In this document: positions 40-5,355 of the stretch, one piece after another
Layout of the letters: every line of letters begins with the position of its first letter
Position numbering within the stretch: position 1 is the first letter of the stretch
Virus record (IMG/VR): IMGVR_UViG_3300044852_000015
Location: 174,015-238,014 of that record
Reading direction: 5' to 3' (one strand)
DNA length: 64,000 nucleotides
Source of the DNA: a virus
Lineage: Duplodnaviria > Caudoviricetes
Notes under the pieces: generated by a model
What the model was told of the DNA's origin: nothing
The model's database searches: none
What the model saw: the letters and a program-made list of their open reading frames with translations, nothing else
Program-made: the position numbers and the translations under genes

Positions 40-657
40 ATGGGGCGTTTAGTAAATCTGCTCGAGGAAGCTGAGCTTACCTTGACTTACAGTGCAGAAG
101 GAATCGCTTTGCTGGATGCTAGCGAAGCGGAGGTTCCAACCAAGGATGTTTATATCCTGTTGACCGACACCAAGACCTTAGTGAGTAAGGTTAGCCGTAT
201 GGTGACAGGTGATCCGTATAACCACGTATCGCTGATGCTGTCTGAGGACTTCGACGAGGGTATCTATACCTTCAGTCTCTCAAACGGACTCAATGGCATC
301 TTCGGTGGCTTCATGGTCGAGGATCGTAAGAACCTGAAGGGGTCACACTACTCCATGTATCGTCTCGCTGTCACCAACAGCGTCTACGACAAGATCAAGG
401 TTAAGGTGACTGACTACGTTAACGCGGTAGACAAAACCTCCTACAACCACCTTGGGTTGTTCAATGCGATCTTCAAGAAAGGTATCTTCAAGTCTGAGGA
501 TGGCCAAGCTGCGATCTGTTCTGAGTTCGTGGTGGAAGTACTTAAGTTCGCTGGCGTAGAACTCTTCGCCAAAAGATTAGCGAGTACTGTAAGACCTTAC
601 GACTTGGTCAAATCCAAGCTGCTGAAGTTCTACAAGCGTGGCGTCATAAAAGGCTGA
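40..657 (+). CDS. Permuted papain-like (NlpC/P60, YiiX/YaeF-type) amidase/peptidase, possibly a virion head protein
   Basis: His before Cys (YNHVSL ... YNHLGLF ... ICSEFV), as in permuted papain-like enzymes; acidic N-terminus with S-A-E and A-S-E motifs. Confidence 0.6.
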   Translation: MGRLVNLLEEAELTLTYSAEGIALLDASEAEVPTKDVYILLTDTKTLVSKVSRMVTGDPYNHVSLMLSEDFDEGIYTFSLSNGLNGIFGGFMVEDRKNLKGSHYSMYRLAVTNSVYDKIKVKVTDYVNAVDKTSYNHLGLFNAIFKKGIFKSEDGQAAICSEFVVEVLKFAGVELFAKRLASTVRPYDLVKSKLLKFYKRGVIKG

Positions 658-661
658 ATCC

Positions 662-690
662 CCGGCTCACTTCGGTGAGTCGGTTTATGA
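662..690 (+). terminator. Hairpin terminator of gene 40..657
   Basis: CCGGCTCAC-TTCG-GTGAGTCGG followed by TTTATGA. Confidence 0.8.
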
Positions 691-1250
691 CGGCATAAAA
701 GCGCGGCTCGAGGGAATCTCAACCTACTCCAAGTGCCCCTCACCATTAGGTTGGTGGTGAGGCGACCTCGTTTCGCGCGGAATCCCTGCGGCTTTGCTTT
801 TATGCTTTCTTACTGTTAAGTAGAACTGGCTTGTCGTACCCGTGATCGTCTTCCTCCCAAGGCCTTGGGAAGTACTGGCTCAATAGAGCACTACCTTAGA
901 TCCACACTGTTTTTGTGCTTACACCCTCGCGCTACTCCGGCCCCAAACTGAGGCTCTATCACATTGAAATGCTCGTGAACCTCTAAGCTCTATAAGGTGG
1001 CCAAGAGGTATGCTTACCCGGCCCTTTGCCGAGTGCATTACCACCGAACCACTTAAAGGTGATCTTAGAAAGGCGCAAGGCGTTTGATTGTGGTTTGCCG
1101 GAATCTCTCCCTATGTTGGGTAACAAACTGAACACGAGCGTGTGCATCAGTCTGAAAAGAGCGAACTCTCTACCCCAACTAGAAATCCCCAACCAAAGCC
1201 AGTTCTTCAACTCTTCTGTCACGGTGTGCGCATTAACCGTTGGCTTCAGG
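690..1250 (-). ncRNA. Candidate large structured non-coding RNA (family unassigned)
   Basis: No credible ORF; 11-bp closing helix 822-832/1196-1206, many nested helices with G-U pairs on the minus strand, a UUCG hairpin, a pseudoknotted 3' module 693-805, TATAAT upstream and a TTTTATGCCG end motif. Confidence 0.6.
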
Positions 1251-1256
1251 CTCAAG

Positions 1257-1286
1257 ATTATACTTTTCAGAAGTCCTCTATGCCAG
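1257..1286 (-). promoter_or_regulatory. Possible sigma70-like promoter for the candidate ncRNA
   Basis: Minus strand CTGGCA-N18-TATAAT, with the -10 box at 1262-1257. Confidence 0.3.
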
Positions 1287-1611
1287 AACACGTACCACGA
1301 ACGTGCGGCTGTCGGTACTCCTCCAAGTCACTACGCAGCAACTCGGGCCTGTGGTGCGAATGCCACCGCCGTTCGACTTCTACCACCGGGTCGTAGTCTA
1401 AGACCATCCCGGCTGTGAGCGAAGGCACAATGGCACCGCAATCCAAGTGAGTGAACATTCCGAATGGTCCGTCCCCAACGCATTGTCGGGGTTCGGTTTG
1501 ACCAGCTCGGTATTCTTCTTCAGTAACCACGTCCAAGCCGTGGTCAGCTAGAAGTCTCGCTAAGCCTAGTGCGCAACCGCCGATGATCAAGATCCGTCGT
1601 GCGGTACCCAA
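1267..1611 (-). CDS. Hypothetical protein
   Basis: 114-aa ORF in the PhuZ operon, AAGGA SD upstream. Confidence 0.6.
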   Translation of the reverse strand: MGTARRILIIGGCALGLARLLADHGLDVVTEEEYRAGQTEPRQCVGDGPFGMFTHLDCGAIVPSLTAGMVLDYDPVVEVERRWHSHHRPELLRSDLEEYRQPHVRGTCSGIEDF

Positions 1612-1623
1612 TAGACATCCTTA

Positions 1624-1815
1624 TCAGCCCAGACCGATACCAGAAGGACGGTTCTCGACCTGATGTTTCGCAGGATCGTAAACTACCTTCTCGTACAGGT
1701 TGTGCCAAGGTTTACCCAAACAGCAAGTGCATTGGAAAACGTTACCCGCTGGCTTGCTCAGGAGTTCAATGGTTCCACACCTGTCGCAAGCGTATTCCAG
1801 CAACGTACCGCTCAT
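1624..1815 (-). CDS. Small zinc-ribbon protein
   Basis: CDRC...CTCC motifs; TAATG overlap with the phuZ stop codon. Confidence 0.7.
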   Translation of the reverse strand: MSGTLLEYACDRCGTIELLSKPAGNVFQCTCCLGKPWHNLYEKVVYDPAKHQVENRPSGIGLG

Positions 1816-2777
1816 TACAACACCAAGCCGTCGTCAGTAGTGGCAGTGTCGCCCACCAGATCAACAGCAGCAGCACGACCTTCACGACGACGAATGAAGT
1901 CGTCCAGAGTCTTCTGGAGTTTCTCGTAAGTAGCATCGAGATTCTCGGTGGACACCACGAGGTGAACTTCGCTAACACCTTCGATAGCGGTCTTGAAGTA
2001 GCCGGTGCACGGATACTCTGGGATCGGTTCTTCCAGGTGCTTCTGATCACGGTCGCTGTAGAGCGAAGCGATGGTGATCGGGTCCTTGATGGCCGCAACG
2101 GCTTCAGGGCTGTAGAAGATGTCCAACATCGCCAGTTGTGCAGGCACGCTGGTCGAGTGGTTGAAACGCAGCCAGTTGGCAACGTCTTTGGTGTCCAGCT
2201 CGTCGTTCTGACGCGAAGTCAGGTAGCACAGGCTGGAGATGGCCAGGTGGAGCTGACCGTCGACTACCGAACGAGTGCACTCGCCGCCGTTGTGACGGTA
2301 GTACATGACGATCGGGGTATCGACTTGTTTGGAGATGGCTGCCAGCGACTTGATGGTGTTCAGGCTGTTCTGTGCAGTGATGGTCGATTCCGAAGAACCC
2401 GCCAACAGTACCACAACCGAGTGACCACGGGCTGCCAGTTCTTTGGCCAACAGTGGACCAATAACCGAACCCGAACCGCCGGATGCCGAGAAGACCACGA
2501 TGTTGAAGTCTTCAGGAACTTGTTGCAGAAGGATCTGCTTGACCGCTGCGGAGATCTGCGCGTGGTTCTCTTTACGCACTTTACCGGAGCCGTCGGTTTT
2601 GTCGAGGACGTAGATCGAGCTTTCGTCTTCGATGCCGGCCAGGTTGGAACGGCTGGTGTCAACGAAGCTGACCAGTGGGGTAGCGAAGCCAGGAGCTGGA
2701 GGACGACCGATGTAAGTCTTGACGATGTTCGTACCCAGACCACCACAGCCGTACAGACGCACTTTACCTTGTTCCAT
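1815..2777 (-). CDS. phuZ: Phage tubulin PhuZ (spindle protein)
   Basis: GCGGLGTNI N-terminal loop, SASGGSGSVIGP tubulin signature, ELDTKDVANW T7 loop, acidic-hydrophobic C-terminus DDGLVL; 320 aa. Confidence 0.95.
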   Translation of the reverse strand: MEQGKVRLYGCGGLGTNIVKTYIGRPPAPGFATPLVSFVDTSRSNLAGIEDESSIYVLDKTDGSGKVRKENHAQISAAVKQILLQQVPEDFNIVVFSASGGSGSVIGPLLAKELAARGHSVVVLLAGSSESTITAQNSLNTIKSLAAISKQVDTPIVMYYRHNGGECTRSVVDGQLHLAISSLCYLTSRQNDELDTKDVANWLRFNHSTSVPAQLAMLDIFYSPEAVAAIKDPITIASLYSDRDQKHLEEPIPEYPCTGYFKTAIEGVSEVHLVVSTENLDATYEKLQKTLDDFIRRREGRAAAVDLVGDTATTDDGLVL

Positions 2778-4946: not shown

Positions 4947-4986
4947 CGGCATAGAGAGAGGCGGTGAGCCTCTCTCTTTTATGCGC
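4946..4986. terminator. Bidirectional hairpin terminator, GCATA/TATGC class
   Basis: CGGCAT-AGAGAGAGGC-GGTGA-GCCTCTCTCT-TTTATGCG between convergent genes. Confidence 0.8.
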
Positions 4987-5355
4987 TTAGTAGCGCTTAT
5001 TCCACGAGTAGCTCGGTTCATCCTTCAGCTTGATGACCTCGTACCCCGGAGCAGCAAAGGTAAAGTATCCCACACTTGTGGTCATTACGATGGCACTGCG
5101 GTCACGAAGGTTGATCGACCATGCTACTTTGCGGACAGTGTCCTCGAAGTTTACTTCAAGTGCTTGGTAGTGCTTACGAGCGTACTCCATAAGCGCACCA
5201 GTGAGCCGGAGCTTGACGTTGTCCAGCAGACTGACCTTCTCTAGGTCCCGAGTCTCACATCGTCCTATACGACCTGTCAGAGCTTCGATGTGTTTTTGGA
5301 ACTCTAGCTTGTGTAACATCAGCTCAGAAGCGGTGTACTCTTTATATTCAGACAT
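4987..5355 (-). CDS. Hypothetical protein (start could be 5409)
   Basis: ORF track; coiled-coil-like N-terminus. Confidence 0.6.
   Translation of the reverse strand: MSEYKEYTASELMLHKLEFQKHIEALTGRIGRCETRDLEKVSLLDNVKLRLTGALMEYARKHYQALEVNFEDTVRKVAWSINLRDRSAIVMTTSVGYFTFAAPGYEVIKLKDEPSYSWNKRY

What the first reader, a model, noticed from the sequence alone, without database searches (positions are those of the whole stretch)
690..1260. Candidate large 'ornate' non-coding RNA at the end of the PhuZ operon
Seen: ~570 nt with no credible gene in a densely coding genome. On the minus strand a perfect 11-bp helix (AGAACUGGCUU 1206-1196 / AAGCCAGUUCU 832-822) encloses ~375 nt of nested helices. These include a long irregular arm (1090-1195) ending in a junction with a GAGAG-UUCG-CUCUU hairpin and a CAGACUGA/UCAGUUUG hairpin, a long-range helix 1083-1073/932-921, and hairpins at 1012-1036, 979-1009, 940-954 and 878-889. 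Possible pseudoknots are GCUCGUG 1139-1133 / CACGAGC 977-971 and GGUGG 1045-1041 / CCACC 1000-996. Helix irregularities are G-U on the minus strand but A-C on the plus strand, which points to the transcribed strand. A TATAAT lies just upstream, and the phage's TTTTATGCCG termination motif lies at the downstream end. I see no tmRNA, RNase P, group I/II intron or tRNA hallmarks. Established: phages carry large ornate RNAs of unknown role (ROOL, GOLLD). Inference: an undescribed structural or regulatory RNA of a nucleus-forming phage, possibly linked to the PhuZ spindle it is co-oriented with.
Basis: partly seen in the sequence, partly recalled or inferred. Interest (0 to 1): 0.92.

Follow-up and report, generated by a model that had tools for sequence, protein, structure and literature searches.

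The report
Knotted phage RNA hiding membrane-peptide frame
Behind the tubulin operon of this uncultured nucleus-forming jumbo phage lies a real, intricately folded RNA of about 550 bases that matches no catalogued family and, unexpectedly, keeps a roughly 75-codon hydrophobic reading frame open inside its fold, so it is probably both a structure and a translated message.

Summary
The fold is real, but 'non-coding' is probably wrong. The minus-strand element (about 1243-691) is kept at the same place in 12 related phages. 23 base pairs show compensatory changes and 88% of cells pair; 0 of 500 shuffles reach either value. One pseudoknot is supported by one compensatory pair. There is no Rfam match. 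One sense frame stays stop-free for 72-81 codons from an invariant GUG (1222) in all 13 phages (about 1 in 20,000 column shuffles). It ends at six different stops, all 2-27 nt before the second pseudoknot strand. The peptide drifts freely (pN/pS about 1) but stays hydrophobic. More distant phages have a similar unit in the same slot; homology is not shown statistically. Best reading: a translated structured RNA ending the phuZ operon, where folding hides the start and a passing ribosome refolds it while a signal-like nascent chain goes to the membrane (inferred, 0.4). A PhuZ link is unsupported. The scan noted large RNAs behind phuZ on other DNA before, one with a short ORF.

The parts
691..1243 (-). 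Structured RNA, conserved extent; the true 5' end is unknown
   Evidence: Conservation begins at 1243 and ends at the terminal motif; single copy in the genome
983..1222 (-). Embedded reading frame: invariant GUG at 1222-1220, 79 codons, UAG at 985-983; hydrophobic first half; true start unproven
   Evidence: Open in 13 of 13 phages; hydrophobicity; pN/pS
1221..1240 (-). P1 hairpin; its 3' strand holds the first two bases of the GUG; its loop (1231-1227) is complementary to 1077-1073 (possible pseudoknot 1, invariant, no covariation)
1196..1211 (-). 5' strand of closing helix P2 (codons 4-9), pairs with 832-815
   Evidence: Perfect in 3 phages, partly kept or re-registered in the others; U-A/U-G/C-G series at one pair
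1084..1196 (-). Most conserved core: helices P3-P5, an invariant A-rich internal loop (1099-1091), and a three-way junction with hairpins 1170-1157 and 1154-1124
   Evidence: 96-100% of cells paired, 9 compensatory pairs; 70-97% identity in relatives
971..1139 (-). Pseudoknot 2: loop 1139-1133 pairs with 977-971; every stop codon lies 2-27 nt before its 3' strand
   Evidence: 100% paired, one compensatory pair; stop positions
979..1071 (-). Long arm P9, with an alternative hairpin 1009-979 that shares its 3' strand
   Evidence: Similar topology in both subclades at 37% identity; duplex energies
940..954 (-). Hairpin P10, first hairpin after pseudoknot 2
   Evidence: 2 compensatory pairs, 100% paired
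833..935 (-). Variable region with lineage-specific hairpins
   Evidence: 24-98% identity
691..815 (-). 3' domain: A-rich linker, then a long stem with an invariant core (792-784 with 714-706, bulged A), a variable apex and the terminal U-tract motif
   Evidence: Core 99% paired; outer stem shows a compensatory A-U to G-C change
1257..1262 (-). TATAAT, a possible but unproven promoter
   Evidence: Not conserved; differs from the genome's TATATTA early promoters
1267..1611 (-). 114-aa gene of the operon, with a conserved hairpin (1305-1289) in its last codons
   Evidence: pN/pS 0.5; no Pfam match; hairpin
1624..1815 (-). 63-aa gene with two CxxC pairs (zinc-ribbon-like)
1815..2777 (-). phuZ
   Evidence: PF22334 and PF00091; 41% to Xanthomonas phage RTH11 tubulin
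40..690 (+). Convergent 205-aa gene (40-657) and its terminator hairpin (about 662-690); bounds the RNA's 3' end
   Evidence: no Pfam match

Best explanation
A dual-function RNA at the 3' end of the phuZ operon: a doubly pseudoknotted fold whose 5' half is also translated. Shown by comparison: the fold, the open frame, its hydrophobic first half, the lack of amino-acid conservation, and termination just before pseudoknot 2. Inferred: in the folded state P1 and P2 hide the start region, so translation is rare and begins at a non-AUG codon. A ribosome that does load unwinds P2-P9 and both pseudoknots, stops before the 3' half, and lets the RNA refold. The two invariant 5' elements (1080-1074 and 1139-1135) are also complementary to the two invariant strands of the 3' stem (790-784 and 710-706), which offers a second fold. 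The peptide acts mainly in cis, like a degenerate signal anchor that brings the ribosome-RNA complex to the inner membrane. What is selected is the act of translation and hydrophobicity, not a protein fold.
For: Covariation. Open frame: p 0.005 for 50 codons in the 12 phages found without the peptide and 1 in 20,000 over 72 codons in 13; the other sense frames carry 1-5 stops in that block and all frames are stopped in the 3' half. pS is 0.04-0.06 in the four close pairs against 0.21-0.34 in the adjacent gene, and pN/pS is mostly 0.7-2.9. Hydrophobicity exceeds column shuffles over 49 codons (p 0.01-0.02). Distant phages have a 58-82-codon frame in the same slot, strongly hydrophobic in all but L097, often without an early AUG, ending 10-45 nt before an invariant hairpin. 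Three other jumbo phages have a strong Shine-Dalgarno followed by AUC and a 98-101-codon frame inside a covarying RNA. RNA-library contigs cover the element (weak).
Against: There are no translation data, and no Shine-Dalgarno sequence before the GUG. The window's own peptide is only moderately hydrophobic (Kyte-Doolittle 19-residue mean 1.3), and the excess is not significant over the first 35 codons alone (p 0.08-0.12). The alternative 5'-3' pairings are invariant, so they have no covariation support. Covariance models of this clade do not detect the distant units, so their homology rests on gene order and layout. The RNA-library cover is ascertainment-biased and may be DNA.
Confidence: 0.4

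Rival explanations
1. It is the mRNA of a small membrane-active protein that works in trans (lysis timing, superinfection exclusion, host shut-off). The fold is a tight translational lock, as in type I toxin mRNAs such as timP, whose pseudoknot drives initiation.
For: Hidden start region, long-range pairing of early codons with the 3' half, pseudoknots and a hydrophobic ORF. timP was first annotated as a non-coding RNA and needs a pseudoknot for translation (PMC11228461). Distant same-slot ORFs look like real membrane proteins.
Against: No amino-acid-level selection, variable length and C-terminus, no protein relatives outside the clade, and no antisense partner found in the genome.
Confidence: 0.25
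2. It is a pure large non-coding RNA of the ROOL/GOLLD kind, possibly forming multimers through its loop-loop pairings. The open frame is a relic of an ancestral small gene or chance.
For: Size, pseudoknots, closeness to a tRNA cluster, and a conserved 3' with a variable 5' region as in GOLLD. In ROOL, a pairing first read as intramolecular proved intermolecular (PMC12286853).
Against: A relic frame would have gained stops at about 40% peptide identity between subclades; it has not. No match to ROOL or GOLLD models even at E 10.
Confidence: 0.17
3. The RNA, its peptide or both form the missing phage factor that anchors PhuZ minus ends at the cell poles.
For: Last unit of the phuZ operon in four clades plus L227. 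A phage-derived polar organiser is still unidentified (PMC7950403). A membrane-targeted RNA could serve.
Against: The look-alike unit is 117-132 kb from phuZ in four PhuZ phages; most phuZ loci lack a similar gap; no binding data.
Confidence: 0.07
4. It is a leader or arrest-type sensor: membrane insertion of the nascent chain sets ribosome stalling, and that controls termination or processing at the 3' stem.
For: Layout of hydrophobic N-terminus, spacer, then stop next to a switchable structure resembles SecM/MifM-type monitors (own knowledge; papers listed, not read).
Against: No conserved C-terminal arrest motif, six different stop positions, and no co-oriented gene directly downstream.
Confidence: 0.07
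5. It is only a DNA element or an overgrown bidirectional terminator.
For: The 3' stem ends in the phage's terminator motif and abuts a convergent gene.
Against: Minus-strand G-U-tolerant covariation across 300 nt, pseudoknot covariation and the open frame.
Confidence: 0.04

Closest known systems
ROOL and GOLLD large ornate RNAs (PMC5737381, PMC12286853)
   Same: Phage-borne, 500-800 nt, multi-junction, pseudoknotted, near tRNA clusters, function unknown
   Different: No covariance-model match; different architecture; this RNA keeps an internal hydrophobic frame open, which the passages I read do not describe for ROOL or GOLLD
Type I toxin mRNAs with pseudoknot-dependent translation (timP, PMC11228461; tisB and hok from own knowledge)
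   Same: Small hydrophobic ORF, hidden start, alternative folds, pseudoknot
   Different: The structure covers the coding region itself, the peptide sequence drifts, there is no AUG or Shine-Dalgarno, no antitoxin RNA was found, and the carrier is a lytic jumbo phage
tmRNA (own knowledge; tested with ARAGORN and Rfam)
   Same: An internal frame without AUG among pseudoknots, with low amino-acid constraint
   Different: No tRNA-like domain, T-arm or CCA end; the frame is 72-81 codons and hydrophobic
Cis-acting nascent chains: SecM, MifM and VemP monitors; XBP1u mRNA targeting (own knowledge; one search lists papers)
   Same: A hydrophobic segment whose synthesis matters to its own RNA
   Different: No arrest motif and no regulated downstream gene shown
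Small phiKZ non-coding RNAs (PMC10914365)
   Same: From a nucleus-forming phage, some near the tRNA region
   Different: The examples quoted there are 71-196 nt; the two I folded are simple hairpin strings; no model match in the phiKZ tRNA region

Membership tests
ROOL / GOLLD / OLE | Match to the Rfam covariance model | tested here: not met
   No hit at gathering score or at E up to 10
ROOL / GOLLD / OLE | Large, multi-junction, pseudoknotted, covariation-supported fold | tested here: met
ROOL / GOLLD / OLE | Near tRNA clusters in phage genomes | tested here: met
   8 tRNAs 2-5 kb downstream on the same strand; also in relatives
ROOL / GOLLD / OLE | RNA-only homo-oligomer | not testable with these tools
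   Needs cryo-EM or mass photometry
tmRNA | tRNA-like domain with acceptor stem, T-arm and CCA | tested here: not met
   ARAGORN and Rfam negative
tmRNA | Internal frame without AUG | tested here: met
Type I toxin-antitoxin mRNA | Small hydrophobic ORF with its start hidden by structure | tested here: inconclusive
   Frame and hiding helices are present, hydrophobicity is moderate, start unproven
Type I toxin-antitoxin mRNA | Conserved toxin sequence | tested here: not met
   pN/pS about 1; no BLOSUM or synonymous signal
Type I toxin-antitoxin mRNA | Cognate antisense antitoxin RNA | tested here: inconclusive
   No significant complement elsewhere in the genome; a cis antisense RNA cannot be excluded
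Type I toxin-antitoxin mRNA | Toxicity on expression | not testable with these tools
   Bench test
Group I/II introns, RNase P, small ribozymes | Catalytic core motifs or Rfam match | tested here: not met
   No Rfam hit; no P7 or domain V pattern by inspection
Y RNA | Ro60-binding stem with bulged C, and a Ro60 gene nearby | tested here: not met
   The bulge is an A on the 3' strand; no TROVE gene in the 86%-complete genome
Retron / DRT / DGR RNA | Linked reverse transcriptase | tested here: not met
   No RVT_1 match in the 86%-complete genome
Arrest-peptide monitors | Conserved C-terminal arrest motif upstream of a regulated gene | tested here: not met
   Variable C-termini; the next gene is convergent

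The most novel reading that the evidence does not exclude
A new class of self-targeting phage RNA: a large pseudoknotted RNA of nucleus-forming phages that is translated from a non-AUG codon only so that a sequence-free hydrophobic nascent chain tethers it to the membrane and the ribosome switches its fold. It would supply a membrane-bound RNA scaffold, possibly the unknown organiser of the PhuZ spindle or of capsid assembly.
Probability: 0.2. Interest if true: 0.93.

Novelty: new variant of a known kind. Interest (0 to 1): 0.74.

Why it matters
Large ornate phage RNAs are an open problem, and the jumbo-phage review searched here mentions non-coding RNAs only once, for phiKZ. This one gives a handle that ROOL and GOLLD lack: a reading frame selected to stay open and hydrophobic while its sequence follows the RNA fold. 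That makes its function testable with single stop, frameshift and compensatory mutations. If translation serves to place or refold the RNA, it is a little-known use of ribosomes in bacteria. It also warns that RNAs called non-coding behind phuZ should be checked for kept-open frames.

Tried and rejected
Rfam at gathering and E-value thresholds on the window, on relatives and on the L233 RNA: only tRNAs. BLAST of the RNA, of two distant units and of both flanking genes against cultured phages: nothing, so no cultured carrier is known; the host is unknown. The pattern scan of metagenomes gave mostly chance hits; only L034, L064 and L068 were true. GTDB scan: nothing. Covariance models of the 5' core and 3' domain found only this clade; the best distant hit was L097 at E 3.6. 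Y RNA, group I P/Q/R/S, group II domain V, permuted tmRNA, SRP and VS-substrate resemblances were considered by eye and rejected. A conserved frameshift from the 114-aa gene was rejected: the frame relation is -1 in the window, +1 in L004 and fused in L006. The hairpin-plus-hydrophobic-ORF count (19 of 82 sites against 1.8% background) includes five chance sites antisense to or inside genes (L219, L223, L228, L296, L247) and many close relatives, so it is not a clean statistic. The ESM Atlas gave no usable hit for the peptide. Lack of RNA-contig cover over phuZ and the convergent gene is not used as evidence. Literature searches for the invariant hairpin and for such RNAs in Chimalliviridae found nothing relevant. 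No structure or complex prediction was run, as no binding is claimed.

Full report
Setting. The window is the last 64 kb of a 238-kb single-contig virus record, estimated 86% complete. It encodes PhuZ at 1815-2777 on the minus strand (PF22334, PF00091; best cultured match Xanthomonas phage RTH11, 41%). It has phiKZ-type early promoters TATATTA, nearly all on the minus strand, and a terminator motif TTTTATGCCG at 14 sites. It is therefore most likely a nucleus-forming jumbo phage (inference; I did not look for the shell gene). Behind phuZ come a 63-aa CxxC gene and a 114-aa gene, then the finding, then a convergent 205-aa gene, then a minus-strand tRNA cluster.

Observation. The minus strand folds at z -3.4 and the plus strand at -1.2. 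Rfam gives nothing. Using the flanking proteins and a DNA motif I collected 12 relatives with the whole element at the same place, in two subclades. The 5' core (1069-1243) is 70-97% identical, higher than phuZ DNA in nine of ten relatives, while third codon positions of the flanking genes fall to about 50%. On a plain MAFFT alignment my 123-pair model has 88% of cells paired, 23 pairs and 66 cells with changes on both sides; 0 of 500 shuffles reach these, and slid registers fall to 37-46%. The shuffle ignores relatedness, and the two subclades contribute many of the cells. But several changes are independent within a subclade: three versions of the UUCG hairpin stem, several of helix 1179-1174/1120-1115, and two rewrites of hairpin 1154-1124 (L006 and L326). 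Pseudoknot 1139-1133/977-971 is 100% paired with one compensatory pair. A second possible pseudoknot, loop 1231-1227 with 1077-1073, is invariant and so untested. The helix 1083-1073/932-921, the 1045-1041 pseudoknot and hairpin 878-889 are not conserved. TATAAT is not conserved and is not the phage's early consensus, so the 5' end is unknown; the RNA may be the processed or unprocessed end of the phuZ operon transcript.

The unexpected part. The frame of ORF 983..1291 is stop-free in all 13 phages from an invariant GUG at 1222-1220, whereas the other two sense frames carry 1-5 stops per sequence in the 50-codon block compared. Column shuffles that keep each column's pattern give an open sense frame in 0.5% of trials for those 50 codons in the 12 sequences found without using the peptide. 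Over 72 codons in 13 sequences the figure is 1 in 20,000 (L326 was found by peptide similarity). The frame survives a stretch where the subclades are only 37% identical and ends at six different positions, all 2-27 nt before the 3' strand of pseudoknot 2. In the 3' half all frames are stopped. The peptide shows no protein-type selection: 11 synonymous against 62 non-synonymous changes, flat by codon position, pN/pS mostly 0.7-2.9 with pS pressed down to about 0.05 in close pairs, and no BLOSUM signal. It is more hydrophobic than shuffles over 49 codons (p 0.01-0.02; not significant over 35 codons). There is no conserved AUG or Shine-Dalgarno sequence and no consistent frame relation to the upstream gene (in L006 the two are fused). 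No protein relatives exist outside the clade.

Wider pattern. In more distant phages (convergent protein about 59-72% identical) the same slot holds a 58-82-codon frame, strongly hydrophobic in all but L097 and often without an early AUG, that stops 10-45 nt before an invariant hairpin ACCGAUUAAGUUCGG. In these clades the unit ends in a long stem with a bulged A and the same U-tract motif. One clade shows pN/pS of 0.7-1.6 and an in-frame 15-nt indel. A phage with 41% PhuZ identity (L227) keeps the gene order, a hydrophobic frame and the hairpin. Four other PhuZ phages carry a larger unit; three have a strong Shine-Dalgarno, an AUC codon and a 98-101-codon hydrophobic frame inside a covarying RNA. 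There the unit lies 117-132 kb from phuZ. The window's RNA lacks that hairpin, and my covariance models do not detect these units. They are therefore look-alikes by position and layout, not proven homologues.

Expression. Contigs from two metatranscriptomes and one probable RNA library cover parts of the element; one 680-nt contig at depth 21 has aligned pieces at 1309-930 and 819-790 and runs 156 nt further upstream. The runs were found with this stretch and may hold DNA, so this is a weak hint.

Mechanism. Shown: fold, open frame, stop placement, weak amino-acid constraint. Inferred: P1 holds the first two bases of the GUG and P2 holds codons 4-9, so the folded RNA is a poor template. A translating ribosome must melt the 5' strands of P2 and pseudoknot 2 and the 3' strand of pseudoknot 1, and it leaves just before the 3' half. 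The freed invariant elements 1080-1074 and 1139-1135 are complementary to the two invariant strands of the 3' stem (duplexes of -11.8 and -8.0 kcal/mol, against -11.4 for the stem itself), which offers a second fold. A peptide that must be open and hydrophobic but not specific behaves like a signal anchor (established knowledge of SRP substrates). I therefore favour translation acting in cis, to refold the RNA and take it to the membrane (0.4), over a toxin-like mRNA (0.25), a pure ROOL-like RNA (0.17), a spindle anchor (0.07), an arrest sensor (0.07) or a DNA element (0.04).

Known systems. It works partly like ROOL and GOLLD (size, knots, tRNA neighbourhood) and partly like timP mRNA (pseudoknot, hidden start, small membrane product), but fails membership of each tested family. 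A phage factor that anchors PhuZ at the poles is still unknown, but nothing here ties the RNA to it beyond gene order. Earlier scan notes report large RNAs behind phuZ in other jumbo phages, one with a short fast-evolving ORF; these are unchecked AI notes on other genomes and are not counted as support.

Verdict. A real and apparently undescribed structured RNA that is probably translated. Interest 0.74.

Noticed in passing
L207:9600-10130 (+), L224, L233:980-1500 (+), L271: A roughly 500-nt structured unit in four PhuZ jumbo phages, far from phuZ. Three have a Shine-Dalgarno plus AUC start, a 98-101-codon hydrophobic frame, a four-way junction with the invariant hairpin, a covarying hairpin with loop CUGAGC, and a terminal stem. 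No Rfam match for L224, L233 or L271.
   Followed up: partly
L213, hairpin at 4978-4992 (+): A 70-nt tRNA-framed RNA with a tmRNA-like 5' end, just before a tRNA, in which the same invariant hairpin sits in the T-arm position.
   Followed up: no
L268 / L323 (Edwardsiella phage pEt-SU, about 249.5 kb): A cultured jumbo phage carries the same invariant hairpin in a gap near tRNA-Tyr, without the upstream hydrophobic frame; the easiest place to test the hairpin.
   Followed up: partly
L117:3351-3841 and L120:5651-6241: A different conserved folded stretch of about 480 nt (z -3.9) downstream of phuZ in phages with 51% PhuZ identity; no match to this RNA's model and no long shared open frame seen.
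   Followed up: partly
L010:8000-14000 (genome 168-174 kb, just before the window): A minus-strand island of 8 tRNAs, tRNA-shaped RNAs with odd anticodon arms, ORF-free folded spacers and small genes; relatives carry Tad2-like and Sequestin genes here.
   Followed up: partly
L006:6948-7352: A small deletion fuses the 114-aa gene in frame with the RNA's internal frame.
   Followed up: partly
window 720-750: The apex of the 3' stem (CCUA) is complementary to a conserved UAGG just downstream in most relatives that have this insert: a possible third pseudoknot of 3-7 pairs; absent in L005 and L008.
   Followed up: partly
L107: A 242-kb contig of a close relative lies inside a Streptomyces genome assembly (GCA_024105335.1); probably co-sequenced, not evidence of host.
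   Followed up: no
window 40-657: The convergent 205-aa protein has no Pfam match but shows invariant His and Cys motifs that recall permuted papain-like enzymes (own knowledge).
   Followed up: no
L121:4724-5370, L136:4914-5533, L156:2766-3243, L181:3929-4443: Further ORF-poor folded gaps (z -3.8 to -8) downstream of phuZ in unrelated jumbo phages.
   Followed up: partly
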